From: Archaeoglobaceae archaeon
GTDB lineage: Archaea > Halobacteriota > Archaeoglobi > Archaeoglobales > Archaeoglobaceae
DNA: 56,137 nucleotides
Direction of reading: 5' to 3'
Assembly (NCBI GenBank): GCA_038893835.1
Contig: JAWAQR010000006.1
Location: 1 to 56,137, forward strand
The notes under the pieces are model-generated. The model saw only the letters and a program-made list of their open reading frames with translations, had not been told where the DNA came from and did not search any database. The position numbers and the translations under genes were made by a program. Positions 132 to 11,863 of the stretch are shown here, one piece after another (positions within the stretch are counted from its first letter, which is position 1; the number at the start of each line of letters is the position of its first letter).

Positions 132-394
132 CTCTCTTCACCGCTCGCAAGTATATATAGCGGTACGGGATTTACCGGGGGTCTTTGTGTTGTGATTCCA
201 ATTTCTTCAATGCTTTTCCCAGTCTTTTGACTTAAAAGTCTAAGGATGTGCATAAGACACCCTTTCCCCTGACAGGGTCCAGTCATCGCTCCGGTGTATC
301 TCTTTAAGCTCTCTATGTCATCATAGCCAAGCTCTATTGCATGAATTATTTCCTCTTCCGTCAAATCCTCACATCTGCAAACGACCTTTCTCAT
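128..394 (-). CDS. BFD-like (2Fe-2S)-binding small subunit of the proline dehydrogenase/sarcosine oxidase-type complex
   Basis: VCRCED...KRYTGAMTGPCQGKGC...TTQRPP motif, with 4-bp overlaps to both neighbours. Confidence 0.85.
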   Translation of the reverse strand: MRKVVCRCEDLTEEEIIHAIELGYDDIESLKRYTGAMTGPCQGKGCLMHILRLLSQKTGKSIEEIGITTQRPPVNPVPLYILASGEER

Positions 395-876
395 TCTTTC
401 ACCTTCCTCACAGCTCTAACTTCATATATCAGCTTTACATCCATTTCAACGCGAACAAGTGATGTCTGATCGTTTCTCTCAGGTGGTAGAACCCAGTTTA
501 CAACTCCAATTCCAACAACCTCCCCTTTTCTGTTCAAAAGCTCGACTTTATCTCCTTTTTTTAGCCATGGAAGGAGCTCATACTGTAGCGTAACTTCTCC
601 CTTTCCATCTTCCCTTATTCTCAACATGAATATTGCAAGTCCAGGGCAAACGCGAATGCAGTTCATGCAGCCGGTACATTTTTCATAGTCGACTTCTGGT
701 GGATCGTTGATGTTCTCCATTTTTATCGCATCTACAGGACAAGCTTCATAGCATGGACTACATGGAATTGGCTGAGGGCATTCGATATAGGCCACTGGTC
801 TCTTCTTCAACCTTTCCTCACTTGGAAAAGGCGGTAGTTCTTCGAGTTCAGCATAACCTCTTTCTAGGTATTTCAA
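391..876 (-). CDS. 2x[4Fe-4S] ferredoxin subunit of the proline dehydrogenase-type complex
   Basis: CPQPIPCSPCYEACP and CTGCMNCIRVCP motifs. Likely TTG start at 876 overlapping the upstream TGA and preceded by GGGGTGGA (ORF track start 900). Confidence 0.85.
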   Translation of the reverse strand: MKYLERGYAELEELPPFPSEERLKKRPVAYIECPQPIPCSPCYEACPVDAIKMENINDPPEVDYEKCTGCMNCIRVCPGLAIFMLRIREDGKGEVTLQYELLPWLKKGDKVELLNRKGEVVGIGVVNWVLPPERNDQTSLVRVEMDVKLIYEVRAVRKVKE

Positions 877-2456
877 GCTTCCACCCCATCCATCAAACAC
901 TTCTCAATGCCACAAACTATCCTTTTCCCAAATGGTCCAGATCTGAATTCCTCTAAGTCTTTTATAGTATCATTTAATTCCTTCCTAGCTTCCTCTCCAC
1001 CCAGTCCAAGTGAAATCGCAGCATGAAGCGCTGCAATTTTTCCATTCATTATCGCTGCTGTAGCCTCTTCAATTCCGGCCACATCCCCTGCGACGTAAAC
1101 ACCTTCAACACTCGTTTCATTGAACTTTGTTCGTAGCGGAACCAATCCTCCAAGCTCTGGTACAAATTTCATCCTACAACCAGCTTGGTAAAGCAATTCA
1201 TGGGTAGGTGAAAGTCCGACTGCAACGCATATGAAATCGCAGTCTATCCGCTTTTCACTTCCGGGAATGGGTTTAAATTTTTCATCTAGCTGCGCTATTA
1301 TAGCTCCTTCAACGTGATCTTTTCCAAGCGCTCGAATTATGGTATGTCTCACATATATCGGCACACCTAATCTGCGAATTTTTGCAGCGTGGACAAAGTA
1401 ACCTCCAATTCTTGGCATTGCCTCAACGACAGCAGCAACCTCAACTCCAGCCTGTATAAGCTGGTAGCTCAAGATTAATCCAACATTTCCCGAGCCAACT
1501 ATTAACCCCCTTTTTCCCGGTTTTATGCCATAGACGTTCATAAGCGTTTGCACGCCGCCAGCTCCGTAAATTCCAGGGAGATCGTTGTTCTCGAACACCA
1601 ATGTCCTTTCATATGCTCCAGTTGCTACTATTATTTTCTTTGGAATTATCCTTAGAAGTCTTTCTTTCTCAACAGCTCCAACTTCCTTTCCATAGATACC
1701 AAAAACTCTTGTTTCAAGCCTTATGTCAACGTTTGGGATCTTTTTGAGCTCATTCTCCAAGATCTTGGCAATCTTTATACCCCTAGTCCCAGCCATGTGT
1801 TTTCCAGAACCAAAAAAGCGATGCGTCTGCTTTACAAGCTGCCCACCCAAAAACGGGTTTTCATCAACCAGCAAAACTCTTGCTCCATATTTTCCTGCAT
1901 TAATCGCTGCACTCATTCCAGCTGGTCCACCACCGATTACAGCAACGTCGCAATGAATTTCTTCATAGCTACCTTTACCACTAAATTCGACCTTTGGAGC
2001 ATTACCGAATCCAGTCATCTTTCTCAACTGAGATAGAAAGAAATCGCGCAAAAGTTTTGATGTGAACTTCGTGTATTGACTTCCATGTGGAAATAATCTG
2101 TCTAAAAATTTATCAAAGATCGCAAAGAAATCCTTTTCAGCATTTGGGAAACCGATTTGTGTTTTAACTTTCATCCCATTTCGAACGTAAACTTTGCAAG
2201 TTCTCACGTTTGGAACACCATCTACTTCCATCATGCATGCCGAACATTTTCCAATTGCGCAGAAAAAGCCACGCGGTCTATGCCATCTAAAGGACCTGCT
2301 AAAGATTCTGATTCCATTGGCATAAAGAGCTGCTGCAACGGTTTCGCCTTCATAGGCTCTTATCGGTCTTCCATTGAAATATATCGTAACTTCTTTGCCT
2401 CGATTGAATTTGAGTATTGGATGTTCGGTCAATCTTCCGTCTACGATTTTCGCCAT
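873..2456 (-). CDS. Proline dehydrogenase/sarcosine oxidase alpha-type subunit (2Fe-2S plus FAD/NAD-binding)
   Basis: N-terminal HRPRGFFCAIGKCSAC...NVRTC 2Fe-2S domain, GGGPAG FAD motif, ATGAYER, GSGNVG NAD motif and AGDVAG. Confidence 0.9.
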   Translation of the reverse strand: MAKIVDGRLTEHPILKFNRGKEVTIYFNGRPIRAYEGETVAAALYANGIRIFSRSFRWHRPRGFFCAIGKCSACMMEVDGVPNVRTCKVYVRNGMKVKTQIGFPNAEKDFFAIFDKFLDRLFPHGSQYTKFTSKLLRDFFLSQLRKMTGFGNAPKVEFSGKGSYEEIHCDVAVIGGGPAGMSAAINAGKYGARVLLVDENPFLGGQLVKQTHRFFGSGKHMAGTRGIKIAKILENELKKIPNVDIRLETRVFGIYGKEVGAVEKERLLRIIPKKIIVATGAYERTLVFENNDLPGIYGAGGVQTLMNVYGIKPGKRGLIVGSGNVGLILSYQLIQAGVEVAAVVEAMPRIGGYFVHAAKIRRLGVPIYVRHTIIRALGKDHVEGAIIAQLDEKFKPIPGSEKRIDCDFICVAVGLSPTHELLYQAGCRMKFVPELGGLVPLRTKFNETSVEGVYVAGDVAGIEEATAAIMNGKIAALHAAISLGLGGEEARKELNDTIKDLEEFRSGPFGKRIVCGIEKCLMDGVEA

Positions 2457-2522: not shown

Positions 2523-2530
2523 TTTATAAA
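2523..2530 (+). promoter_or_regulatory. TATA box of the hdr-flx cluster (probably a leaderless first gene)
   Basis: TTTATAAA preceded by an A-run, ending about 22 nt upstream of ATG 2552, with no RBS before the ATG. Confidence 0.6.
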
Positions 2531-2551: not shown

Positions 2552-3382
2552 ATGTCTGAAGATCAGAAAAAAACAATAATAATCGATTATAAAAAATGTG
2601 TTAGCTGCGGAATCTGTGTAGCGCTTTGTCCGCATAAAGTGCTTGAGTTTGTTAATGGTTATCCTGAAGTAACAGGAATCTGCAAAGTTTGCGGTCTTTG
2701 TGCGGGTAGCTGTATAACTTCTGCTATAACCATGTTTGCAGCTAAATTCAGAGACGACTCGATTTTAGCTGAAATTGAAAAGAGTAATCTGATCTCTTGT
2801 AGGAGAAAAAGCAAAGAAGGTACAACTTTGTTATGTATTTCTAGGCTCGATATGATCCATATAGCTGAAGCAATTGCAAAGCATGGAAGTGTTGCAATTC
2901 TGAGTTGCGAAGGAGATTGCAGAAACAATCCTGGGGCATTTGAGGCTAGAAATAAAGTAAAAGTGATGAGGATGGCCTTGAAAAAGCTGGGATTGGAAGA
3001 GGAGAGAATTGCATTTAATGAAACTCCTAAAAAATTTGAAAAAATTAGCTCTGAGATTGCAGAAATTTTGAGAGCTGTTGCGAGGGATAGAAATGTTAGA
3101 GCCCTAACTGCGAAAATGAGGACCATAGTTGAGCTTGGGAACGTATATGGAGAAAAAATTGATGCTGAAAAATATGAAGAGGTTCTATCAAATGCAGTTG
3201 AGACAGCTATAAGGGTTGCGAAGATTCTATCGTATGTAAAAGGAGAAGCGAGAGTTTCGGAGATAGCTGAAAAATCTGGGATGAATAAAAGAGATGTAGT
3301 TGCCACAATTGTTGAAATGAAGAGAAGGGGATTAGTTGAAATTGGAGGAGAAGATGAGCTGACTATTAGGGTGGTTAGATGA
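2552..3382 (+). CDS. Ferredoxin + divergent MvhD/FlpD-like [2Fe-2S] domain + C-terminal winged HTH fusion protein
   Basis: CVSCGICVALCP and CKVCGLCAGSC ferredoxin motifs. ISC...LCISRLD...LSCEGDC...LGLEEERI matches MvhD spacing. GNVYGEK linker, then RVSEIAEKSGMNKRDVVATIVEMKRRGLV wHTH-like end. Confidence 0.7.
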   Translation: MSEDQKKTIIIDYKKCVSCGICVALCPHKVLEFVNGYPEVTGICKVCGLCAGSCITSAITMFAAKFRDDSILAEIEKSNLISCRRKSKEGTTLLCISRLDMIHIAEAIAKHGSVAILSCEGDCRNNPGAFEARNKVKVMRMALKKLGLEEERIAFNETPKKFEKISSEIAEILRAVARDRNVRALTAKMRTIVELGNVYGEKIDAEKYEEVLSNAVETAIRVAKILSYVKGEARVSEIAEKSGMNKRDVVATIVEMKRRGLVEIGGEDELTIRVVR

Positions 3383-6357
3383 GCGTTTTGGTAGTTGGTG
3401 GTGGTATTGCTGGAATTCAAGCGAGTTTGGATTTGGCAGAATCTGGAATTAAGGTTTATTTGGTAGAAAAGCTACCAGCTATTGGCGGTAGAATGAGTCA
3501 ACTTGACAAGACATTTCCAACGAACGATTGCTCGATGTGCATACTATCTCCAAAGCTAAACGAAGTTGCAAGGCATGAGAATATTGAGATAATAAACAAC
3601 GCTGAAGTTATAGCAGTAGAAGGTAATGCTGGGGATTTCAGGGTGAAGATAAAACAGAAGCCGCTTTATGTAGATAGATCAAAATGTACTGGCTGCGGAG
3701 TTTGTGCATCGATTTGTCCAGTAAGTGCGATAGATGAGTACAATGAAGGGATGAGCTTTAGATCCGCTATATTTCTACGCTACCCTCAGGCTGTGCCGAA
3801 GGTTTATGCGATAGATAGAAGTAAATGCGTAGGTTGTGGGATTTGTTATAACGTTTGCGTGGCAAAGGCAATTGATTATGGACAGAAGGAAAAAATAATT
3901 GAGTTAAAAGTCTCTTCAATAATCCTGGCTCTAGGAGGGAAACTTTTTGACGCTAGAAGGAAAGGAGAATATGGCTACGGTATATATCCAAATGTTATCA
4001 CGAGCATACAGTTTGAGCGCCTTCTCTCTGCTACTGGCCCATTTGAGGGACATGTTTTCAGGAGCGATGGGAAAGTTCCAAAGAAGATCGCAATACTGCA
4101 ATGTGTTGGTTCTAGGGATGCAAAGACTAATCCATATTGCTCATCAGTTTGCTGCACTTACGCGACAAAGCATGCTATAATTGCAAAAGAACACATTCCA
4201 GATGCAGAAATTCACATCTTTGCAATGGACGTCAGAACTTTTGGCAAAGGTTTTGAGGAATATGCGAATAGAGCTAAGAATGAGTATGGTATAATTTATC
4301 ATAAAGCAAGAGTGGCCAACATATTGCAAAAGAAAGACGGAAATTTAATTATAAAATATGAAAAAGATGGAAAGAGCTATGAAGAAGAATTCGATCTCGT
4401 AGTCCTGTCTGTAGGCTTTGAAGCAGGAGAAGAGCTTAAAGAGTATTCTAAAATCTTTGGAATTGAACTGAATGACTATGGCTTCATTTTAACAGACTCC
4501 TTTGCACCAGTAGAGACTTCAAAACCTGGTATATTTGTTGCAGGAGTGGCTTGCGAACCAAAGGATATTCCAGAAAGCGTTGCAATGGCGAGCGCTTCAG
4601 CAGCAAAAGCTTCTGGGCTAAATTTTGAAAGAATTTTGAAAAAGAAAGAATTTCCACCTGAAAAGAATGTAGTAGGTGAACCTCCGAGAATCGGTGTCTT
4701 TATCTGTCATTGTGGTGTAAACATAGCATCAACAGTTGATGTTGAAGAGTTGACGAGATTCGCTAAAACGCTCGATGATGTAGTTTTTGCAGATCATGTT
4801 CTCTTTGCCTGCTCTGCTGATACGCAGGAAAAGATAAAGAAGGCAATAGCAGATTATAACTTAAACAGAATCGTTGTTGCAGCCTGTACACCAAGGACAC
4901 ATGAACAGTTGTTCAAAAGAACACTGATGGAAGCTGGTTTGAATCCGTATCTATTCGAGTTTGTGAACATAAGGGAGCACTGTTCCTGGGTGCATACGGA
5001 TAAATTGAAAGCGACTGAAAAGGCAAAGACACTTTTAAATGCTGGCGTTTCAAAGGCGAAACTTCTTGAGCCCTTGCAATTCGTCGAAGTGGATGTTGTT
5101 AAAAGGGCTTTGATAATTGGCGGAGGATTGGCAGGAATGGTTTCAGCGATTGAACTTGCTAGGAATGGAATAGAATGCTATTTAGTTGAAAAAGAGGCTG
5201 AGCTTGGAGGGAATTTGAGACACATTCATTACACGATCGATGGAAAAGATCCACAGGAATTGCTTAAGAAACTTGTAGCAGAAGTTGAATCTAATCCTAG
5301 AATAAAGGTGTTCAGGAATTCCATGGTTGAGAGTGTGGAGGGATTTGTTGGCAATTACAGGAGTATGGTAAGGACTCCAAATGGAACTGTCGAATTGGAA
5401 CATGGTGTGATAATCGTTGCAACAGGTGCAAAAGAGTATAAGCCAAAGGAATTTGGATATGGGCATCCAAGGGTATTAACGCAGGTGGAACTTGAAGAAA
5501 AGTTGGCTAAAAAAGAAGTGCCGAGAAGTGTTGTGATGATTCAGTGTGTTGGAAGCAGAAATGAGGAGAGACCATACTGCAGCAGGATCTGTTGTCAGAC
5601 TGCGATAAAAAATGCGTTGAAAATAAAGGAACTGGATCCAAATGCTGACGTTTTAATCCTCTTCAGAGACATTAGAACTTATGGATTCCTTGAAAGATAC
5701 TACGAAAAGGCTGCAAGAGAGGGAGTTATCTTTGTCCGCTACACCCCAGAAAATCCACCAGTCGTGAGAGAGAGTGGAGATGGAGTAGAGGTGGAGTTTT
5801 ACGATGAAATTCTCGGTGAAAAACTTGTTGCAAAACCAGAGTTCGTGGTTTTAAGTGCCGCGATTGTGCCAAATGAGGACAATGCTAGTATTTCGAAACT
5901 GCTGAAAGTACCACTGGATCCAAATGGTTTCTTCTTAGAAGCGCATCCAAAGCTTCGTCCAGTCGATTTTGCAACCGAGGGGATATTCTTAGCTGGGATA
6001 GCGCACAGTCCTAGGCTTATTCCTGAAACGATTTCTCTGGCACTTGCAGCAGTTTCAAGAGCGATGACGATTCTTTCGAAGGATAAGATAGTGATGGAAG
6101 CGAATAAGGCTGAAGTTACCAGAGAACGCTGTGATGCCTGTGGAATTTGCGTGAAAGTCTGTCCTGTGAATGCGATTGAAATCGTAGAGTTTAAGACAAG
6201 GACAGGAGTCGAGCTTAAGGCTTCAGTTAAGAAAGCAGTCTGCCTTGGCTGTGGAATTTGCAGCGCTTCATGTCCTAAGGGTGCAATAACCGTGAAAGGC
6301 TTCACGTTCGATCAGATAAAGTCGGCTATAGATGGTTTGTTAGAGGTGATGGTGTGA
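3379..6357 (+). CDS. hdrA: Heterodisulfide reductase subunit A, large tandem (two FAD-domain) type
   Basis: GGGIAG...DKTFPTNDCSMC, an inserted ferredoxin and CVGSR..YCSSVCC; then the RIGVFICHCG domain, a second GGGLAG, CVGSR..YCSRICC, FFLEAHPKLRPV and a C-terminal 2x[4Fe-4S] ferredoxin. Confidence 0.93.
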   Translation: MSVLVVGGGIAGIQASLDLAESGIKVYLVEKLPAIGGRMSQLDKTFPTNDCSMCILSPKLNEVARHENIEIINNAEVIAVEGNAGDFRVKIKQKPLYVDRSKCTGCGVCASICPVSAIDEYNEGMSFRSAIFLRYPQAVPKVYAIDRSKCVGCGICYNVCVAKAIDYGQKEKIIELKVSSIILALGGKLFDARRKGEYGYGIYPNVITSIQFERLLSATGPFEGHVFRSDGKVPKKIAILQCVGSRDAKTNPYCSSVCCTYATKHAIIAKEHIPDAEIHIFAMDVRTFGKGFEEYANRAKNEYGIIYHKARVANILQKKDGNLIIKYEKDGKSYEEEFDLVVLSVGFEAGEELKEYSKIFGIELNDYGFILTDSFAPVETSKPGIFVAGVACEPKDIPESVAMASASAAKASGLNFERILKKKEFPPEKNVVGEPPRIGVFICHCGVNIASTVDVEELTRFAKTLDDVVFADHVLFACSADTQEKIKKAIADYNLNRIVVAACTPRTHEQLFKRTLMEAGLNPYLFEFVNIREHCSWVHTDKLKATEKAKTLLNAGVSKAKLLEPLQFVEVDVVKRALIIGGGLAGMVSAIELARNGIECYLVEKEAELGGNLRHIHYTIDGKDPQELLKKLVAEVESNPRIKVFRNSMVESVEGFVGNYRSMVRTPNGTVELEHGVIIVATGAKEYKPKEFGYGHPRVLTQVELEEKLAKKEVPRSVVMIQCVGSRNEERPYCSRICCQTAIKNALKIKELDPNADVLILFRDIRTYGFLERYYEKAAREGVIFVRYTPENPPVVRESGDGVEVEFYDEILGEKLVAKPEFVVLSAAIVPNEDNASISKLLKVPLDPNGFFLEAHPKLRPVDFATEGIFLAGIAHSPRLIPETISLALAAVSRAMTILSKDKIVMEANKAEVTRERCDACGICVKVCPVNAIEIVEFKTRTGVELKASVKKAVCLGCGICSASCPKGAITVKGFTFDQIKSAIDGLLEVMV

Positions 6358-6758
6358 AGATAGTGACTTTTGCCTGTAACTGGTGCAGCTATGCTGGAGC
6401 AGATTTAGCAGGAGTTAGCAGGCTGAAGTATCCTGAGGATGTGAAAATAATCCGTGTAATGTGCTCTGGCATGGTAAATCCAGCATGGATTCTCCGCGCT
6501 TTCAGACAGGGTGCGGATGGGGTTGTAATAGCTGGCTGTCATCCTGGAGACTGTCATTACATGGTTGGAAATTACCATGCGAAAAAGAGGTATATCCTGC
6601 TAAAGGAGCTATTGAAGTTCATAGGTTTCGAAGATGAACGATTGAAGCTACTCTGGGCATCTGCATCGGAGGGAAAGAAATTTGCAGAAGAAATGACTGC
6701 CTTTAAAAAAGTTATAGAACAGCTTGGAGAGCAAAAGAAGTTGAGGTGGGAGGAATGA
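6354..6758 (+). CDS. mvhD: MvhD/FlxD [2Fe-2S] subunit
   Basis: FACNWCSYAGAD, RVMCSG, GADGV..GCHPGDCHY and WASASEG motifs. Confidence 0.93.
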   Translation: MKIVTFACNWCSYAGADLAGVSRLKYPEDVKIIRVMCSGMVNPAWILRAFRQGADGVVIAGCHPGDCHYMVGNYHAKKRYILLKELLKFIGFEDERLKLLWASASEGKKFAEEMTAFKKVIEQLGEQKKLRWEE

Positions 6759-7699
6759 GCGAATTGGAGAAGATAAAAGAAGCGATAAAGAGTTCGAATG
6801 CTGAGAAGATTGTAGCATTTGTAAGGAAAAAGAATGAGCCAAGAGAAGTTCTTGCAGTTCTTGGCATGAATGAAATCGATAAAATTTCCTTCTCTCCTCT
6901 ATCCATCAACAATCCTGCAAAGCTCCTCATGCAGCTAAGTGGTAAAGTAGCTGTTGTTGCCAAGGGTTGCGATGCGATGGCGATAAAGCAATTGATAAAA
7001 GAGGGAAAGCTCAAAAGAGAAAACTTATTCATCGTTGGTGTCTCCTGCAAAGGAGTCATAGATTATAGGAAGCTTTCAAAGATCGTAAAGTTGAATGAAG
7101 TCTCCTCAGTCGAACTTGATGGACAGGATTTAGTGATAAAGACGAAGAATGGAGAAAAGAGAGTCTCTTTTGCTGAAGTCATCGATGAGAACTGCAAATA
7201 CTGCGAACATCCAACTCCTGTCATTTACGATGTGCTGATTGGTGAGGCTAGAGAGGGAAAGAAAGACTTTAGCGATGTTGAAGAGTTTGAGAAAATGAGC
7301 AGGGAAGAGAGATGGAATTACTGGATTTCTCAATTCGAAAGATGTATCAGATGCCATGCCTGCAGAAGCGTTTGTCCACTTTGCTATTGTGAGGAGTGCA
7401 TCGTTGACCCATCGAATCTTGCAATCTCTCCAATGAGCACCGCTGAAGAGAAGGCAAGCTATCCAAGACTTCTTGGAAAAACAGTAAATGCAAAGGATAA
7501 CGCGATTTATCACATCTTGCGCGTTTTACACCATTCAGGAAGATGTGCTGGCTGTGGAGAATGCGAAAGAGCATGTCCAATGGAGTTGCCTTTAAGAAAG
7601 CTAGAAAGAAAGCTCGAAAAAGTTGTTTTTGAAACTTTTGGATATGATCTGAGAGAGGAAATACCATTCTTCTCAAAGCTCGACATAGTGGGTGATTGA
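6755..7699 (+). CDS. flxC: FlxC-like (FdhB/FrhB-like) iron-sulfur subunit
   Basis: KGCD, CKYC, CIRCHACRSVCPLCYC..C and RCAGCGECERACP motifs; follows mvhD. ATG 6755 after GAGGTGGG (ORF track start 6746). Confidence 0.78.
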   Translation: MSELEKIKEAIKSSNAEKIVAFVRKKNEPREVLAVLGMNEIDKISFSPLSINNPAKLLMQLSGKVAVVAKGCDAMAIKQLIKEGKLKRENLFIVGVSCKGVIDYRKLSKIVKLNEVSSVELDGQDLVIKTKNGEKRVSFAEVIDENCKYCEHPTPVIYDVLIGEAREGKKDFSDVEEFEKMSREERWNYWISQFERCIRCHACRSVCPLCYCEECIVDPSNLAISPMSTAEEKASYPRLLGKTVNAKDNAIYHILRVLHHSGRCAGCGECERACPMELPLRKLERKLEKVVFETFGYDLREEIPFFSKLDIVGD

Positions 7700-8672
7700 A
7701 ATGATATACGAGGGGGATTTCCTTAGAGATGCGATTTCCAAGCTTCTTGAAAGAGGTTACAGGGTTTTTGCACCTGTAAAGGTCGATGATTTCCACATTT
7801 TTAAGGAAATAAACTCAGCCAACGATGTAAACTTCGATTATATCCTCCCAAGAAATTCTGCGAAAATAGCGGTTTTTCCGGAAAACGAAGTTCTTATCAG
7901 ATATTCTTCTTGGATCGATGAAATTCCGATGGAAGAAAAAAAGATCGCAGTCGTTGGATTGAGGAGCTGTGATGCCAAAGCTATAAAGCTACTCGACAGG
8001 CACTTCTTGGAGGGATTTGTGGATCCCTATTACAAGAAAAGAAGGGAAAAACTTTTCACAATAGCCATATCCTGCAAAGAAGCTGGTGTGAACTGTTTCT
8101 GTCAGAGTCTTGGATTGGATCCGAAAAATCCTGAAGCGGATATAGTGGTTTCCAAGATTGGAGAAAAGATCTTTGTGAATCATAAAAGTGATGCAGGAAA
8201 AGAATTCCTTTCAGAATTCAATTTGAGAGAGGAAAACTCTGAGGAAATTCTGCTTAGAAAGAGATTTGAGGAAGAAAAACTTGAAATGCGAAGCATTGCT
8301 GTTGATGTTGAAAAGCTCAGAAAAAGCTTTGATAGCAATTACTGGAAAGAAGTCGCGATGAACTGTAAGTCTTGTGGAATCTGCACATATCTCTGTCCAA
8401 CCTGTTTCTGTTTTGACATATACGATGAGGGGGAAAAGAGAGGGGTTAGAATAAGGGCTTGGGATAGCTGTCAATTTCCATTACACACGCTTGAAAGTTC
8501 CAGTCATAATCCGAGGGCAGAGAAGTGGCAAAGGCTAAGGAATAGATTTTATGACAAGTTCTATTACACTCTGGTTAGAAAGGGAGAATTCTATTGTGTT
8601 GGCTGTGGGAGGTGCATAGATTTCTGTCCAGCGGGGATAGATATTGTAGAGGTGATTTCGGAGGTGAGATAA
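7692..8672 (+). CDS. flxB: FlxB-like (AsrA/HydB-like) iron-sulfur subunit
   Basis: GLRSCD, DPYY..RR, CFC, CKSCGICTYLCPTCFCFD, WDSC and CVGCGRCIDFCP motifs. Confidence 0.82.
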   Translation: MIEMIYEGDFLRDAISKLLERGYRVFAPVKVDDFHIFKEINSANDVNFDYILPRNSAKIAVFPENEVLIRYSSWIDEIPMEEKKIAVVGLRSCDAKAIKLLDRHFLEGFVDPYYKKRREKLFTIAISCKEAGVNCFCQSLGLDPKNPEADIVVSKIGEKIFVNHKSDAGKEFLSEFNLREENSEEILLRKRFEEEKLEMRSIAVDVEKLRKSFDSNYWKEVAMNCKSCGICTYLCPTCFCFDIYDEGEKRGVRIRAWDSCQFPLHTLESSSHNPRAEKWQRLRNRFYDKFYYTLVRKGEFYCVGCGRCIDFCPAGIDIVEVISEVR

Positions 8673-9494
8673 TTGCAGAATCCCTATGTTCCATACAAAG
8701 CTGAAATCGTAGAAATCAGGGACGAAGTCAGAGGACCAAGGCCTATAAAGACGTTCAAAATCAGGCTGTTGGAAAGAGAAAGATTTGATTATAAATCTGG
8801 TCAAGGGTGTCTAGTTTCAGTTTTTGGTCGAGGAGAAAGCTGGTTTACGATTGCAAATTCACCTACAAGACCAGATTTGGAGTTTAGCGTTTTAAAGACT
8901 GGAAAAGTTACGGCAAAGCTTCATGAGATGAAAGTTGGAGACATCGTTGGCATTCGCGGCCCCCTTGGGAGAGCATTTCCATTGGAGGAGTGGAAGGGGA
9001 TGAATATATTAACGATCGGAGGCGGGATTGGTCAGACTCCCTTGAGGTCGATTTATCAATATGTGATAGACAAAGAGAAAGATTATGGAGATTTGACGAT
9101 AATATACGGTGCCAGAAGTTCAAGAGATCTAGTTTACAAAGATGAGCTCTTCAAGCTCATCGAAGAAGGTTACAACGTTCATCTCTCCATAGACAATCCA
9201 GAGCCAGAATGGAAGTATTTTGTAGGCTTCGTTCCTGACAACGTCAAAAGGCTTAAGCCTGAACCAAGAAATACGATCGCGATAACCTGTGGACCACCGA
9301 TAATGATCAAGATAACTTTGAACGTTTTGAAGGACCTTGGATTTAGAGATGAACAGATATACACGACTTTGGAAAGAAGGATGAAGTGTGGAATCGGAAA
9401 GTGTGGTAAGTGTAGGATAGAAAGCTATTATGTCTGTAAGGATGGGCCAGTATTTAGCTATGCTGAACTCTCAAAGATGCTTGAAAAGATTTGA
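8673..9494 (+). CDS. flxA: FlxA-like FAD/NAD(P)-binding oxidoreductase (AsrB/HydG/PyrK family)
   Basis: RGPLG, GGGIG, YGAR, CGPPIM and ERRMKCGIGKCGKC...VCKDGPVF. TTG start after a GAGGTGA RBS. Confidence 0.85.
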   Translation: MQNPYVPYKAEIVEIRDEVRGPRPIKTFKIRLLERERFDYKSGQGCLVSVFGRGESWFTIANSPTRPDLEFSVLKTGKVTAKLHEMKVGDIVGIRGPLGRAFPLEEWKGMNILTIGGGIGQTPLRSIYQYVIDKEKDYGDLTIIYGARSSRDLVYKDELFKLIEEGYNVHLSIDNPEPEWKYFVGFVPDNVKRLKPEPRNTIAITCGPPIMIKITLNVLKDLGFRDEQIYTTLERRMKCGIGKCGKCRIESYYVCKDGPVFSYAELSKMLEKI

Positions 9495-9500
9495 GGTGGT

Positions 9501-10004
9501 TTGATGATAGAGGGAAGAGATCCTGAACTCGTTAAAGAGCTAATCGAACTTGGAGCACATGATCTGGTTAAATGTTACCAGTGTGGAACGTGCATAGCAG
9601 ATTGCCCTACGGGTTTCTCAGAAACTCCTCTCAGCGCTAAAAGGCTAATTCATATCATAAAACTTGGACTCAGGGAAAAACTGCTGGAAGAGGAAACACC
9701 ATGGATGTGTGTTACTTGTGGCGGTTGTGAGGAAAGGTGTCCAAGAGAGGCGGAGCCATTTGAAATAGTACTTGCAATAAGGAGATGGCAGTGTAAGGAA
9801 GATGATACATTTGTCCCACTCGTTCTGGGTGAAATATTTGCTAGGGGACATACGCAGAACGTTTTAAATCCAATGCGAGATGAACTTGGGTTACCTAAGA
9901 TAAAGACAGTTGCAAACAACGCTGAAGCTTTGCGAAAGTTTAGGGAGATGTTGAAGGAGACGAACGTTTATAAAAAATATAGCTATATCTTCAGGGAGGA
10001 ATGA
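9501..10004 (+). CDS. hdrC: Heterodisulfide reductase subunit C
   Basis: CYQCGTCIADCP and WMCVTCGGCEERCPR, directly upstream of hdrB. Confidence 0.88.
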   Translation: MMIEGRDPELVKELIELGAHDLVKCYQCGTCIADCPTGFSETPLSAKRLIHIIKLGLREKLLEEETPWMCVTCGGCEERCPREAEPFEIVLAIRRWQCKEDDTFVPLVLGEIFARGHTQNVLNPMRDELGLPKIKTVANNAEALRKFREMLKETNVYKKYSYIFREE

Positions 10005-10897
10005 TTATGAAGTTTAGCCTTTTCCTTGGCTGTAACATGCCTGCAATTCGTCCAGATGTGGAGTTGGCGATAAGACTTTCTCTCCAAACACTTGGAGTTG
10101 AAATCCTTGACATAGAAGGAGCAGCATGCTGTCCAGCTTTTGGGACTTTTCCAAGCGTTGATGAGGAAGCAGCCCTAGCAATAGTTGCCTGGAATCTTGC
10201 AAATGCTGAGAAAAATAGAACCGACATCGTCGTTCAATGTGGGAGCTGTTATTCCGTTCTGAAGCTTGGAAGGTATAAGCTTCTCAATGGAAAACTGGAT
10301 GAGATAAACAAAAAATATCTGTTGAAATTCGATCTTAAATACGAGGGTAAAACCGATGTTAGACATATTCTCGATGTTTTCCATAACGTTATAGGTGTTG
10401 AAAGAATAAGGAGGTCGCTCAAGTATTCAATGAAAGGTATGAAGGTCGTCTTTCAATATCCATGCCATGTCTTAAGACCGAGCAAGAAAGTGGGTTTTGA
10501 TGATCCAGAAAATCCAGTAATATTTAGAAATCTCCTTAAAGCTCTTGGAGCTGAGGTTCCAAGTTTTTCCAGAGAAAGACAATGCTGTGGGGGGGCGGGA
10601 GGATTTGCAAAGCATGATAAAATGGCGAACTTGGAGTTTCTGAAAAAGAAACTGGATGCGATGAAGGATGAGGTAAATCCAGACTGCATCGCAGTTTCGT
10701 GTATAACTTGTCTCATGCACATGGACAACGCTCAAGCGGAGATGAAGAAGCTTGGAATGATCGACTATGAAATTCCAGTCTTCGATTACAGTCAACTCTT
10801 GGCAATTTGCCAAGGACATGATCCGAAAAAAGTCGCAAGAATAGCGACAACGCCGAGAGATGCGGTTATAGATAGAATACTTCAAAATAAGCTCTAG
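10001..10897 (+). CDS. hdrB: Heterodisulfide reductase subunit B
   Basis: Two CCG-type domains: FLGC, CCPAFG, CGSC, YPCH, CCGGAGG, CITC. Confidence 0.9.
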   Translation: MIMKFSLFLGCNMPAIRPDVELAIRLSLQTLGVEILDIEGAACCPAFGTFPSVDEEAALAIVAWNLANAEKNRTDIVVQCGSCYSVLKLGRYKLLNGKLDEINKKYLLKFDLKYEGKTDVRHILDVFHNVIGVERIRRSLKYSMKGMKVVFQYPCHVLRPSKKVGFDDPENPVIFRNLLKALGAEVPSFSRERQCCGGAGGFAKHDKMANLEFLKKKLDAMKDEVNPDCIAVSCITCLMHMDNAQAEMKKLGMIDYEIPVFDYSQLLAICQGHDPKKVARIATTPRDAVIDRILQNKL

Positions 10898-10978
10898 CTT
10901 TGTCGACAAGGGAAAAATTATAAATATCTTTAAACACACAATACAAAAAATTTAAATTAAAGTTAGGAGGTGAATCGA

Positions 10979-11863
10979 ATGGAACTTGAGTTAACTCAAA
11001 TACAGAAGGATATATTATATGCTTTAATAACCCTATACAAGAAGAAGTCTGGAAGCTCTATAAAGGGGGAAGAGATAGCGGAATTAATAAATAGAAATCC
11101 AGGAACTGTAAGAAACCAAATGCAAGCTTTAAGAGCTCTGGGACTTGTTGAAGGAGTTCCAGGACCAAAAGGCGGTTATAGACCAACTGCAAAAGCATAT
11201 GAACTCCTTTCAATTACGAAGCCAGAGGAAAGTGTCGTAGTACCTGTAATAGTAAATGATAACGTAATGGAAGATCTATCCGTTGAGGAGATAGATTTGC
11301 CCTCAGTTTCCAATCCAGAGGTCTGTCAGGCAAGAGTAAGACTTCTGGGAGATATAAAGAAAATAGTACCTGGGGATAAGGTTACTTTTGGCCCAACACC
11401 TGTCAACGAGCTTATAATATCTGGTAAAGTCGTTGGTAGAGATGATACGGCAAACACGGTTATAGTGGATATAGAGAAGATTGTGGCATTGCCGAGAGAT
11501 ACGGTTGGAGAACATATGAGTTCCCCAATTATCGCAGTGAACGCGGATGCAAAGGTAATAGAAGGTGCGAAGCTTTTGGCTGAAAAGCAAATCTACTGCG
11601 CCCCTGTAAAGAAGGATGAAAAATTCGTTGGAATATTCACCTTGGATCACGTAGCAAAAGCTGTTGCAGAAGGAAAACTCGAAGCAAAAGTGGAGGAAGT
11701 GATGAGACCAAAGATAGTGCTTGTTGAAAAGGATACGAAGATAAGAGAGGCAATAAGACTGATGAGAGATGAAAATGTCCGAATTCTAGTTGTAACGGAC
11801 AAAGGAGAGCCGGTGGGAGTTATAACTGACCAGAAGATTCTAACAAAATTGGCTCCACAATAA
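10979..11863 (+). CDS. Transcriptional regulator with N-terminal wHTH (HrcA-like) and C-terminal CBS pair
   Basis: IKGEEIAELINRNPGTVRNQMQALRALGLVEGVPGPKGGY HTH, a GPTPVN middle domain and two CBS repeats. ATG 10979 follows GGAGGTGA (ORF track start 10970). Confidence 0.85.
   Translation: MELELTQIQKDILYALITLYKKKSGSSIKGEEIAELINRNPGTVRNQMQALRALGLVEGVPGPKGGYRPTAKAYELLSITKPEESVVVPVIVNDNVMEDLSVEEIDLPSVSNPEVCQARVRLLGDIKKIVPGDKVTFGPTPVNELIISGKVVGRDDTANTVIVDIEKIVALPRDTVGEHMSSPIIAVNADAKVIEGAKLLAEKQIYCAPVKKDEKFVGIFTLDHVAKAVAEGKLEAKVEEVMRPKIVLVEKDTKIREAIRLMRDENVRILVVTDKGEPVGVITDQKILTKLAPQ

What the first reader, a model, noticed from the sequence alone, without database searches (positions are those of the whole stretch)
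2552..3382. Ferredoxin-MvhD-like-winged-HTH fusion heading the Hdr-Flx operon: candidate redox-sensing regulator or second electron-entry module
Seen: two ferredoxin motifs, then a divergent domain keeping four Cys at MvhD-like spacing (ISC / LCISRLD / SCEGDC / LGLEEERI), a GNVYGEK linker and a C-terminal wHTH-like segment. It is the first gene after a TATA box and overlaps hdrA (ATGA), while a normal mvhD also follows hdrA. Known: MvhD/FlxD docks on HdrA, and canonical Hdr-Flx operons carry no DNA-binding subunit. Inference: the protein may dock on HdrA and report the complex's redox state to DNA, or act as an alternative ferredoxin-bearing adaptor. I know of no characterised protein with this architecture.
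Basis: partly seen in the sequence, partly recalled or inferred. Interest (0 to 1): 0.7.

Follow-up and report, generated by a model that had tools for sequence, protein, structure and literature searches.

The report
Winged-helix MvhD adaptor docking on HdrA
The gene is real and has the described domains, but its DNA-binding-looking tail most likely clips this iron-sulfur protein onto the neighbouring heterodisulfide reductase flavoprotein rather than onto DNA.

Summary
Observation confirmed. Window 2552-3382 encodes a 276-aa protein (X) with a 2x[4Fe-4S] ferredoxin domain of the HdrA C-terminal type, a shortened MvhD/FlpD domain keeping four invariant Cys, a conserved R-x-R...GNVYGEK linker and a winged helix. 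Its stop overlaps the start of a 992-aa fused double HdrA (ATGA), and a normal mvhD follows.

The regulator reading is not supported; the adaptor reading is. X lies directly upstream of the fused hdrA in 20 of 21 Archaeoglobi genomes that carry that hdrA; in the 21st the contig ends. The linker plus winged-helix module also occurs C-terminal to canonical MvhD in at least nine other lineages. In 40 of 43 such loci it sits next to an HdrA-type gene, often between two hdrA genes.

A 2026 preprint reports that BamF, an MvhD adaptor next to a fused HdrA dimer, has a winged HTH that contacts a protein.

A complex prediction places X 176-276 on the inserted ferredoxin domain of HdrA: score 0.83, best control 0.00. 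It uses the "recognition" helix and wing. The winged-helix core is neutral or acidic in 13 of 14 orthologues.

Best reading (about 0.65): an Fe-S subunit tethered at the low-potential port of HdrA. It is a new variant of a known kind. Nothing here is experimental.

The parts
2523..2530 (+). TATA-like box TTTATAAA, about 25 nt upstream of the ATG of X (leaderless or very short leader inferred)
   Evidence: Read. The block AAAGTTTTATAAAC is conserved in the 6 other same-genus upstream regions aligned with the window, which itself reads AAAATTTATAAAC. No transcript start was measured.
2552..3382 (+). Gene X, 276 aa: ferredoxin + MvhD-like + linker + winged helix
   Evidence: Single copy in the genome.
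2576..2737 (+). Residues 9-62: 2x[4Fe-4S] ferredoxin domain of the HdrA C-terminal type
   Evidence: Pfam Fer4. NCBIfam HdrA2 model positions 571-639, E 2.9e-13. PDB HdrA chains 9sfi_A 578-646 and 8rvu_a 585-651, E about 1e-9. Eight Cys invariant.
2783..3046 (+). Residues 78-165: shortened MvhD/FlpD domain. Four Cys kept (C83, C95, C119, C123); the second Cys of the CxxC motif is absent
   Evidence: Pfam FlpD E 3e-10. hhalign against the window MvhD 97 % and against the HdrA N-terminal domain 0.3 %. PDB 5odc_D E 6.5e-10.
3077..3379 (+). Residues 176-276: docking module, made of the R-x-R helix, the GNVYGEK loop (196-202), a long helix and a winged helix (232-274)
   Evidence: Model pLDDT 91.9. 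Winged-helix matches. Collinear alignment with modules of other phyla. Predicted interface with HdrA.
3379..6357 (+). Fused double HdrA, 992 aa. Half 1 is a TrxR-like domain plus the inserted ferredoxin domain. Half 2 is an N-terminal-type domain, a TrxR-like domain and a C-terminal ferredoxin domain
   Evidence: Pfam (Pyr_redox_2 three stretches; Fer4 at 97-118 and 911-971). Sequence. 50-55 % identical to fused HdrAs of other phyla.
3667..3888 (+). HdrA residues 97-170: inserted ferredoxin domain, the predicted docking surface for the X module (contacts 112-168)
4039..4077 (+). HdrA residues 221-233 (PFEGHVFRSDGKV): second part of the predicted interface, touching helix 3 and the wing of X
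   Evidence: P221, G231 invariant and D230 26 of 27.
6354..6758 (+). Canonical MvhD, 134 aa, five Cys
   Evidence: Pfam FlpD E 7.9e-55, full length 1-123 of 123.
6746..7699 (+). FlxB-like Fe-S protein (FrhB_FdhB_C + 4Fe-4S motifs)
7692..8672 (+). FlxC-like Fe-S protein (Fer4_22)
8673..9494 (+). FlxA-like FNR-type flavoprotein (FAD_binding_6, NAD_binding_1, DHODB Fe-S)
9501..10004 (+). HdrC
   Evidence: 4Fe-4S dicluster families. Conserved position.
10001..10897 (+). HdrB (two CCG domains)
   Evidence: CCG E 3.4e-30.

Best explanation
X is an iron-sulfur subunit of the fused-HdrA / MvhD / Flx-like / HdrCB complex, not a transcription factor. It is a variant of the extended MvhD adaptors whose structurally described example is BamF.

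Its C-terminal module (R-x-R helix, GNVYGEK loop, winged helix) is a protein-docking device. It clips X onto the inserted ferredoxin domain of the first half of HdrA. In solved Hdr complexes that domain is the port through which low-potential electrons leave, or in the reverse reaction enter.

X's two [4Fe-4S] clusters and its probable [2Fe-2S] cluster would then be a tethered ferredoxin-like relay at that port.

Evolutionary reading (inferred): in other phyla the MvhD-winged-helix gene lies between an upstream hdrA and a downstream fused hdrA. X looks like the surviving input arm of a lost upstream HdrA (C-terminal ferredoxin domain + MvhD + docking module). Its MvhD domain is shortened and lacks the redox-active Cys.

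Shown: domain content, conservation, synteny.
Predicted only: the docking site.
Inferred: cluster content, direction of electron flow, origin.
For: 1. Strict linkage. The fused hdrA orthologue (at least 69 % identity) is found in 21 of 96 Archaeoglobi genomes. X lies directly upstream, with a 4-nt overlap or 4-nt gap, in 20 of them. In the 21st (G008, 54 % complete) the contig ends 55 nt before hdrA. X without the operon occurs only as a broken copy at a contig end (G006) and as a deletion remnant (G001).

2. The module belongs to HdrA systems in general.
- HMMER over 1.84 billion representatives finds residues about 165-270 of X C-terminal to canonical MvhD in proteins of about 210-260 aa. 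All 10 that I scanned carry FlpD.
- A scan of species genomes with GNVYGEK[IV] gave 52 confirmed loci. They come from Bathyarchaeota, Thermoplasmata, Methanomassiliicoccales, Hadarchaeota, Helarchaeota, Bacillota, Chloroflexi, Desulfobacterota and WOR-3.
- Of the 43 loci outside X's own family, 40 have an HdrA-type ORF adjacent: 36 upstream, 27 downstream. Two of the 3 misses lie at contig edges.

3. Structural precedent. BamF is described as an MvhD adaptor more than 100 aa longer than others, with a winged HTH that interfaces with BamI. BamE is described as a fused HdrA dimer (preprint passages).

4. Complex prediction, HdrA 1-899 with X 176-276.
- Scores 0.83, 0.82, 0.83; best of 3 controls 0.00.
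- The mark was reached by 58 of 80 solved complexes and 2 of 110 mismatched pairs. These counts hold only roughly, because my own alignments were used.
- The runs agree in at least 98 % of contacts; partner pLDDT is at least 85.
- Interface on HdrA: 112-168 (inserted ferredoxin domain), 204, 221-233.
- Interface on X: 180-192, N197, V198, Y199, E201, helix 3 (246-258) and the wing (264-270). Most of the module's most conserved residues are included.
- I know of no solved complex of a winged helix on an HdrA inserted ferredoxin domain, so a pass from memory seems unlikely. I cannot exclude it.

5. The winged-helix core (residues 228-276) has net charge of 0 or below in 13 of 14 orthologues.

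6. The ferredoxin and MvhD parts of X are collinear with the C-terminal ferredoxin + MvhD tail of HdrA-MvhD fusions. In solved complexes the C-terminal ferredoxin domain and MvhD form one mobile arm (PMC12350162 passages).

7. [quoted passage not shown] So that surface is a known docking site for low-potential partners.
Against: - Nothing is experimental. The interface is a model's confidence, and only X 176-276 and HdrA 1-899 were folded. The ferredoxin and MvhD-like domains of X, the HdrA C-terminal ferredoxin domain and all other subunits were left out.
- The closest folds of the module are genuine DNA-binding ArsR/SmtB, MarR and AspA proteins. Distant members of the module family pass Pfam cut-offs for HTH_24 and HTH_5, and some have a basic winged helix (net up to +6).
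- X is the first gene behind a promoter, as autorepressors often are.
- In two Chloroflexi loci the module is a free-standing protein of 119-121 aa, which would also suit a small regulator.
- In BamF the winged HTH contacts BamI, a protein with no counterpart here. The precedent covers the principle, not the site.
- I could not compare X with a BamF sequence, because none was available from the tools.
- Interface residues of the module are only slightly more conserved than the rest (0.51 against 0.45). Those of HdrA are not more conserved at all (0.69 against 0.74).
Confidence: 0.65

Rival explanations
1. X is a redox-sensing transcription factor. Its Fe-S domains sense the redox state (free, or while docked on HdrA), and the winged HTH binds the promoter between X and the divergent upstream gene to auto-regulate the operon.
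For: - The fold is closest to ArsR/SmtB-type DNA binders.
- Weak TrmB and MarR_2 hits. ArsR-type NCBIfam and Pfam hits in distant module carriers.
- X is the first gene after a TATA box.
- A non-palindromic block (window about 2478-2504) is conserved in the 7 same-genus intergenic regions aligned.
Against: - The hits for X itself are below Pfam cut-offs.
- The winged-helix core is neutral or acidic in 13 of 14 orthologues.
- The only inverted repeat in 2440-2570 (10 nt, 90 %) is not conserved in relatives.
- The conserved block overlaps the likely TATA box of the divergent gene and is absent outside the genus.
- In other phyla the module sits inside operons between hdrA genes.
- Helix 3 and the wing are predicted to be buried against HdrA.
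- A separate wHTH + CBS protein is encoded next to the operon.
Confidence: 0.1
2. X has a dual role. It is normally docked on HdrA through the module and is released under some redox condition to bind DNA, so that HdrA occupancy controls free regulator.
For: This combines the evidence for docking with the DNA-binder-like fold. The same face would serve both partners, which makes binding mutually exclusive.
Against: There is no operator candidate. The winged helix is acidic in most orthologues. No call offers a precedent.
Confidence: 0.07
3. X fills the vacant pseudo-symmetric MvhD / C-terminal-ferredoxin site of the fused HdrA. It would supply in trans the arm that the first HdrA half lacks, and so act as a second electron-input arm. 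The module would be only an auxiliary anchor.
For: - The first HdrA half lacks both an N-terminal domain and a C-terminal ferredoxin domain.
- Fused HdrAs show complementary domain loss (PMC9012536 passages).
- X carries exactly a C-terminal-type ferredoxin domain plus an MvhD-like domain.
Against: - Not tested: these domains were not in the complex job.
- In BamE the second TrxR domain is described as structural, with a non-bifurcating FAD.
- The MvhD domain of X lacks the Cys (Sec19 in BamF) proposed to act in transfer to FAD.
- This reading is compatible with the best explanation rather than opposed to it.
Confidence: 0.12
4. X is a functionless evolutionary leftover, an orphan arm of a lost HdrA, carried along with the operon.
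For: The MvhD domain is shortened. One genome has lost the operon altogether.
Against: - All 12 Cys and the module motifs are invariant over orthologues down to 36-44 % identity.
- Full-length intact copies are present in 20 genomes of 6 genera.
- The translational coupling is kept.
Confidence: 0.04

Closest known systems
BamF, the MvhD-type adaptor of class II benzoyl-CoA reductase (Geobacter metallireducens), as described in bioRxiv 10.64898/2026.04.10.717634 (passages read)
   Same: An MvhD domain followed by an extension of more than 100 aa ending in a winged HTH. It is encoded next to a fused HdrA dimer (BamE). The winged HTH makes a protein contact that ties an electron-donor module to the HdrA arm.
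   Different: - X has an extra N-terminal 2x[4Fe-4S] domain.
- Its MvhD domain is shortened and lacks the Sec/Cys next to the cluster.
- The gene precedes rather than follows the fused hdrA.
- The predicted partner is HdrA's own inserted ferredoxin domain, not a BamI-like protein.
- Sequence homology to BamF itself was not tested, because no sequence was available.
MvhD / FlxD / ElpC (PF02662), the [2Fe-2S] connector of Hdr complexes (PDB 5odc_D, 7bkb_F, 8rvu_F)
   Same: The middle domain is homologous (Pfam above cut-off; hhalign 97 %) and four Cys are aligned.
   Different: About 17 residues are deleted after the first strand, and the fifth Cys is missing. The domain is flanked by a ferredoxin domain and a winged-helix module. 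A canonical MvhD is encoded in the same operon.
HdrA2 / HdrA-MvhD fusions (NF040770) and their C-terminal ferredoxin + MvhD tail
   Same: X residues 8-155 are collinear with that tail.
   Different: X has no flavoprotein core, and the score is far below the family cut-off (48.9 against 1100 bits).
ArsR/SmtB- and MarR-type winged-HTH transcription factors (for example NolR 4omy, CadC 1u2w)
   Same: The fold of residues about 205-276.
   Different: There is no family-level sequence hit for X. The surface is not basic in most orthologues, no operator was found, and the predicted partner is a protein.

Membership tests
MvhD / FlpD (PF02662) | Sequence match above the curated cut-off | tested here: met
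   40.6 bits against 22.3, E 3e-10. hhalign 97 % against the window MvhD. 5odc_D E 6.5e-10.
MvhD / FlpD (PF02662) | Full-length domain (profile positions 1-123) | tested here: not met
   Only profile positions 33-118 are matched. About 17 residues are deleted between C83 and C95.
MvhD / FlpD (PF02662) | Four Cys able to hold the [2Fe-2S] cluster | tested here: met
   C83, C95, C119 and C123 are invariant in 14 of 14 orthologues and align with MvhD C8, C37, C62 and C67. Which Cys are ligands is inferred; cluster binding was not measured.
MvhD / FlpD (PF02662) | Additional redox-active Cys (or Sec) next to the cluster (second Cys of CxxC) | tested here: not met
   X reads C83-R-R-K where the window MvhD reads C8-N-W-C11. 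The role of this residue is taken from the preprint passage.
BamF-like extended MvhD adaptors | MvhD domain plus a C-terminal extension of more than 100 aa ending in a winged HTH | tested here: met
BamF-like extended MvhD adaptors | Encoded next to a fused double HdrA | tested here: met
   20 of 20 orthologous loci. 40 of 43 module loci of other phyla have an adjacent HdrA-type ORF.
BamF-like extended MvhD adaptors | Winged HTH used as a protein-protein interface | tested here: inconclusive
   Prediction only: score 0.83 against best control 0.00.
BamF-like extended MvhD adaptors | Sequence homology to BamF itself | not testable with these tools
   No BamF chain is in the PDB copy. The preprint's entries 29QY, 29RC and 29RN are not held, and no BamF sequence was returned by any tool.
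ArsR/MarR/TrmB-type winged-HTH DNA-binding regulators | Winged-helix fold | tested here: met
   (probability 1.00, rmsd 1.1-1.9 A over 54-61 residues; best E only 2.0e-3).
ArsR/MarR/TrmB-type winged-HTH DNA-binding regulators | Family profile match above cut-off | tested here: not met
   TrmB 17.2 against 25.6 bits; MarR_2 17.0 against 27 bits.
ArsR/MarR/TrmB-type winged-HTH DNA-binding regulators | Basic DNA-binding face and a conserved operator near the regulated promoter | tested here: not met
   Net charge of residues 228-276 is 0 or below in 13 of 14 orthologues. No conserved inverted repeat. Actual DNA binding is not testable here.
2x[4Fe-4S] bacterial-type ferredoxin domain | Two CxxCxxCxxxC motifs and a Fer4 profile match | tested here: met

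The most novel reading that the evidence does not exclude
The R-x-R / GNVYGEK / winged-helix module is a general plug. It attaches the electron-input arm of one HdrA module (C-terminal ferredoxin domain + MvhD) to the low-potential exit (inserted ferredoxin domain) of a second, fused HdrA. Two flavin-based bifurcation modules would then be wired in series in Bathyarchaeota, Thermoplasmata, Helarchaeota, Bacillota, Chloroflexi and Desulfobacterota. In Archaeoglobaceae the first HdrA core has been lost, and the orphan arm X survives as a built-in ferredoxin of the NAD(P)H-linked Hdr complex that probably serves DsrC.
Probability: 0.3. Interest if true: 0.8.

Novelty: new variant of a known kind. 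Interest (0 to 1): 0.6.

Why it matters
How Hdr-type bifurcating enzymes hand over their low-potential electrons, and how separate bifurcation modules are coupled, are open questions in anaerobic energy metabolism. This finding bears on them in three ways.

- A docking module that looks like a DNA-binding domain but holds an Fe-S arm on the low-potential port of HdrA would explain the unannotated extended MvhD proteins found next to fused HdrA genes in many uncultured lineages.
- It would warn annotators against calling these proteins regulators.
- It points to a compact, thermostable system (X + fused HdrA) in which the contact can be tested.

Tried and rejected
- Word-indexed search with residues 160-276 alone found only 8 close Archaeoglobaceae relatives. 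It gave no names beyond '4Fe-4S binding protein'.
A 5-row alignment A3 worked. That scan used only the pattern GNVYGEK[IV], so module carriers with other loop sequences (GNVYNE, QNVFGK and so on) are under-sampled.
- NCBIfam holds no BamF-type model. Six distant module carriers hit only the HdrA2 and VhuD models plus sub-threshold ArsR-type models.
- Foldseek on the whole-protein model gave no match at E of 0.001 or better. Neither did the module model. The fold assignment therefore rests on probability, rmsd and topology.
- The idea that the middle domain is the missing HdrA N-terminal domain was rejected: hhalign 0.3 %.
- The inverted repeat 2507-2516 / 2547-2556 is not seen in relatives, so I dropped it as an operator candidate.
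- Earlier findings of this scan: nothing by place or by sequence.
- Sequencing runs. DNA runs of hot-spring metagenomes hold the stretch and may be the window's source. One RNA-library run holds 95-99 % alike contigs over parts of X (2909-3118) and hdrA. No listed contig bridges the X/hdrA junction by 31 letters, and an RNA library does not prove transcription. A second RNA run laid nothing, which is no proof of absence.
- Supplements of the papers were closed. Extended data of the preprint (BamF domain borders) and S1 Data / S8 Fig of PMC9012536 may bear on the comparison.
Full report
**What is there**

Window 2552-3382 (+) is an open frame of 276 codons; I call its product X. Pfam finds a 4Fe-4S ferredoxin domain (Fer4 30.6 bits against a cut-off of 21.1, residues 9-31). 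It also finds an MvhD/FlpD domain (E 3e-10, 40.6 bits against 22.3, residues 93-172 on profile positions 33-118 of 123). The only winged-HTH hits are sub-threshold (TrmB 17.2 against 25.6 bits; MarR_2 17.0 against 27 bits; residues 230-265).

The stop of X overlaps the ATG of the next gene (ATGA at 3379-3382). That gene encodes a 992-aa HdrA made of two fused HdrA-like halves. After it come:
- a canonical MvhD (FlpD E 7.9e-55);
- two Fe-S proteins (FrhB_FdhB_C + Fer4; Fer4_22);
- an FNR-type flavoprotein;
- HdrC and HdrB.

A TTTATAAA box lies at 2523-2530, about 25 nt before the ATG. The block is conserved as AAAGTTTTATAAAC in the 6 other same-genus sequences aligned with the window, which itself reads AAAATTTATAAAC.

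**The three parts of X**

*(i) Ferredoxin domain.* Residues 8-77 match best the stretch of the NCBIfam HdrA2 model that lies just before its fused MvhD (positions 571-639 of 777, E 2.9e-13). They also match the C-terminal ferredoxin domains of solved HdrA chains (9sfi_A 578-646, E 8.2e-10; 8rvu_a 585-651, E 3.2e-9). In the window's own genome the next-best match to X is a 776-aa HdrA-MvhD-type frame aligned collinearly to X 10-155 (E 1.7e-10).

*(ii) MvhD-like domain.* hhalign of the 14-sequence family alignment against the window's MvhD gives 97.0 % probability, E 8.5e-11. It pairs C83, C95, C119 and C123 with C8, C37, C62 and C67, with about 17 residues missing after the first strand. The second Cys of the MvhD CxxC motif is absent: X reads C-R-R-K. 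The HdrA N-terminal domain is not the template (0.3 %).

*(iii) C-terminal module.* Residues 165-276 fold with pLDDT 91.9 into three short helices, the GNVYGEK loop, a long helix and a strand-helix-helix-hairpin winged helix. The best structural neighbours are ArsR/SmtB-type regulators, AspA and a Z-alpha domain (probability 1.00, rmsd 1.1-1.9 A over 54-61 residues). No match reaches E 0.001; the best is 2.0e-3.

All 12 Cys, and R180, R183, R190, E194, N197, Y199, E201, E255, M256 and R258, are invariant in 14 orthologues.

**Distribution and linkage**

- Close relatives (41-74 % identity, 275-307 aa) come only from Archaeoglobaceae records. Where named, they are called '4Fe-4S binding protein' or 'hydrogenase iron-sulfur subunit'.
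- In 96 genomes of the class, 26 have a match at E of 1e-10 or better. Of these, 20 (including the window's genome) are full-length, one is broken by two stops at a contig end (G006), and one covers only residues 1-149 (G001). The rest are ferredoxin or MvhD parts of other proteins.
- I fetched about 19 kb around the 19 full-length relatives and G001, and compared all ORFs with the window's proteins. In every locus with enough contig, X is followed at once by the fused hdrA, then mvhD, the three Flx-like genes, hdrC and hdrB.
- A search with the fused HdrA finds orthologues (at least 69 % identity) in 21 genomes. These are the same 20 plus G008, where the contig ends 55 nt upstream of hdrA.
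- In G001 the locus holds a single 279-codon frame. Its first half is X up to the middle of the MvhD-like domain, and its second half is the C-terminal half of HdrB. The whole operon has been deleted in frame.

X and the operon are thus gained, kept and lost together.

**The module is not private to Archaeoglobaceae**

An exhaustive HMMER search (748 hits at E of 0.001 or better, 18 at 1e-10, 4 at 1e-30) showed many proteins of about 210-260 aa that match X 93-270 or 165-270. All 10 that I scanned carry a canonical FlpD domain. Two (P0031, P0131) pass Pfam cut-offs for HTH_24 or HTH_5. One (P0040, 331 aa) has the same ferredoxin-MvhD-module order as X. The module aligns without internal gaps across these proteins.

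A scan of one genome per species with the peptide GNVYGEK[IV] gave 309 pattern matches and 52 confirmed loci. I left them out as X's own family.

The other 43 come from Bathyarchaeota, Thermoplasmata, Methanomassiliicoccales, Hadarchaeota, Helarchaeota, Bacillota, Chloroflexi, Desulfobacterota and WOR-3. In 40 of 43 an HdrA-type ORF (blastp E below 1e-20 to the window's HdrA) lies directly beside the module gene: upstream in 36, downstream in 27. Of the three misses, two are at contig edges and one (L091) has no HdrA nearby.

The commonest order is [hdrC hdrB] - hdrA (single, split 435 + 557 aa, or fused) - mvhD-module - fused hdrA of about 1000 aa - mvhD - [Flx-like genes or hdrC hdrB]. A shorter form is hdrB hdrC - fused hdrA - mvhD-module. 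The downstream fused HdrAs are 50-55 % identical to the window's.

**What is known**

I read passages only of each paper below.

The preprint 10.64898/2026.04.10.717634 describes the cryo-EM structure of class II benzoyl-CoA reductase. It states that:
[quoted passage not shown] - the Cys next to the MvhD cluster is Sec19 in BamF.

PMC9012536 describes fused and tandem HdrAs with complementary domain loss. [quoted passage not shown]

PMC12350162 describes the donor, MvhD, and the N- and C-terminal HdrA domains as one mobile arm. [quoted passage not shown]

Full-text searches for MvhD + helix-turn-helix (2 papers), HdrA + winged helix (4 papers) and BamF + MvhD (2 papers) returned no other paper on such a protein. 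Subscription journals are not covered.

**Test of docking**

I folded HdrA 1-899 (alignment of 27 fused HdrAs) with X 176-276 (alignment of 20 modules). The cuts were forced by the 1000-residue limit.
- Scores were 0.83, 0.82 and 0.83; the best of 3 controls was 0.00.
- The mark was reached by 58 of 80 solved complexes and 2 of 110 mismatched pairs. These counts hold only roughly, because my own alignments were used.
- The runs agree in at least 98 % of contacts, and the partner's pLDDT is at least 85.

The model supports binding; it does not show it.

The interface on HdrA is residues 112-168 of the inserted ferredoxin domain, including the invariant G152-C153-G154 of its second cluster motif, plus residue 204 and residues 221-233. 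On X it comprises the R-x-R helix (180-192), N197, V198, Y199, E201, the long helix, the 'recognition' helix (246-258) and the wing (264-270).

So the face that a regulator would offer to DNA is predicted to be buried against HdrA. One lineage-level pattern fits the contact: HdrA 232 is K or R and X 269 is E in the Archaeoglobaceae rows, while they are mostly D/E and G elsewhere. This is a single split between related groups and counts for little.

Averaged conservation does not single out the interface (module 0.51 against 0.45; HdrA 0.69 against 0.74).

**Other evidence on the regulator reading**

- The winged-helix core (228-276) has net charge of 0 or below in 13 of 14 orthologues; X itself is +1. 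In distant module carriers it ranges from -7 to +6.
- The 95-nt divergent intergenic region holds two TATA-like boxes and a conserved non-palindromic block (about 2478-2504) in the 7 sequences of the genus. Nothing is conserved in the other genera.
- The one inverted repeat is not conserved.
- A wHTH + two-CBS protein is encoded right after hdrB (10970-11863). That is the kind of protein reported to bind the mcr promoter in Methanothermobacter (PMC3087415 passage). It is a more ordinary candidate regulator.

**Reading**

X is most likely a subunit. Its module anchors it on the low-potential port of the fused HdrA, and its clusters form a tethered relay there.

The synteny in other phyla suggests that MvhD-module proteins serve the HdrA encoded before them with their MvhD domain, and hold on to the fused HdrA encoded after them with the module. 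X would then be the arm of a lost upstream HdrA. This fits its HdrA-type ferredoxin domain and its decayed MvhD domain without the redox-active Cys.

The genome has a DsrC (134 bits), a plausible substrate of HdrBC in a sulfate-reducer lineage. That is inference from the literature on Flx-Hdr, which I recall and did not read here.

Where the ferredoxin and MvhD-like domains of X sit, which way electrons flow and whether the clusters are bound all remain open.

**Expression**

DNA runs from hot-spring metagenomes hold the stretch nearly identically and may be its source. One RNA-library run holds contigs 95-99 % alike over parts of X and hdrA. That does not prove transcription, and no listed contig bridges the junction.

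**Verdict**

X is a new variant of a known kind (BamF-like extended MvhD adaptors). The wider family and its predicted docking site deserve an experiment.

Noticed in passing
L055:13659-14498 (-), genome handle G001: A 279-codon frame whose first half is X (up to the middle of the MvhD-like domain) and whose second half is the C-terminal half of HdrB. This is an in-frame deletion that removed the whole operon. The first Cys of the second cluster motif is also replaced (reads GKRKVCGLC).
   Followed up: partly
window 10970-11863 (+): A gene right after hdrB encodes a winged HTH (HrcA_DNA-bdg E 1.4e-37) plus two CBS domains. It is a more conventional candidate regulator of the neighbourhood. The same gene is adjacent to hdrB in L036.
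   Followed up: no
window about 2478-2504: A non-palindromic block (consensus GATATTAG-TTTTCGCGGTTTGGAA) is conserved in the 7 same-genus intergenic regions aligned, between X and the divergent gene. It overlaps the likely TATA box of the divergent gene and is absent in other genera.
   Followed up: partly
L059, L061, L072, L082, L085, L094, L099, L107 and others: Loci of Bathyarchaeota, Thermoplasmata, WOR-3 and Helarchaeota carry two HdrA systems in one string, with the MvhD-winged-helix gene between them. The second, fused HdrA is 50-55 % identical to the window's.
   Followed up: partly
L083, L084, L093, L096, L097, L098, L100 (Desulfobacterota records): Both hdrA and the mvhD-module gene appear as split ORFs: 75-89 aa + about 928 aa for hdrA, and 167-168-aa module ORFs that lack the MvhD N-terminus. 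This is as expected if in-frame TGA encodes selenocysteine. I did not inspect the codons.
   Followed up: no
L056:7995-8360, L057:7995-8354 (Chloroflexi records): The module occurs as a free-standing protein of 119-121 aa, directly after giant HdrA-MvhD fusions of 1675 and 1224 aa.
   Followed up: no
window 391-2456 (-): The divergent gene pair (Fer2_4 + Pyr_redox_2 flavoprotein of 527 aa, and a 169-aa ferredoxin-like protein) is syntenic with X in 13 of the 20 fetched loci (12 of the 19 that hold full-length X, plus the G001 remnant locus), across four genera.
   Followed up: no
genome G000: The assembly is small (1.17 Mb, 97 % complete by marker count) for this family. Same-genus genomes range from 1.0 to 1.7 Mb, and only 8 of 19 carry X and the operon.
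   Followed up: no
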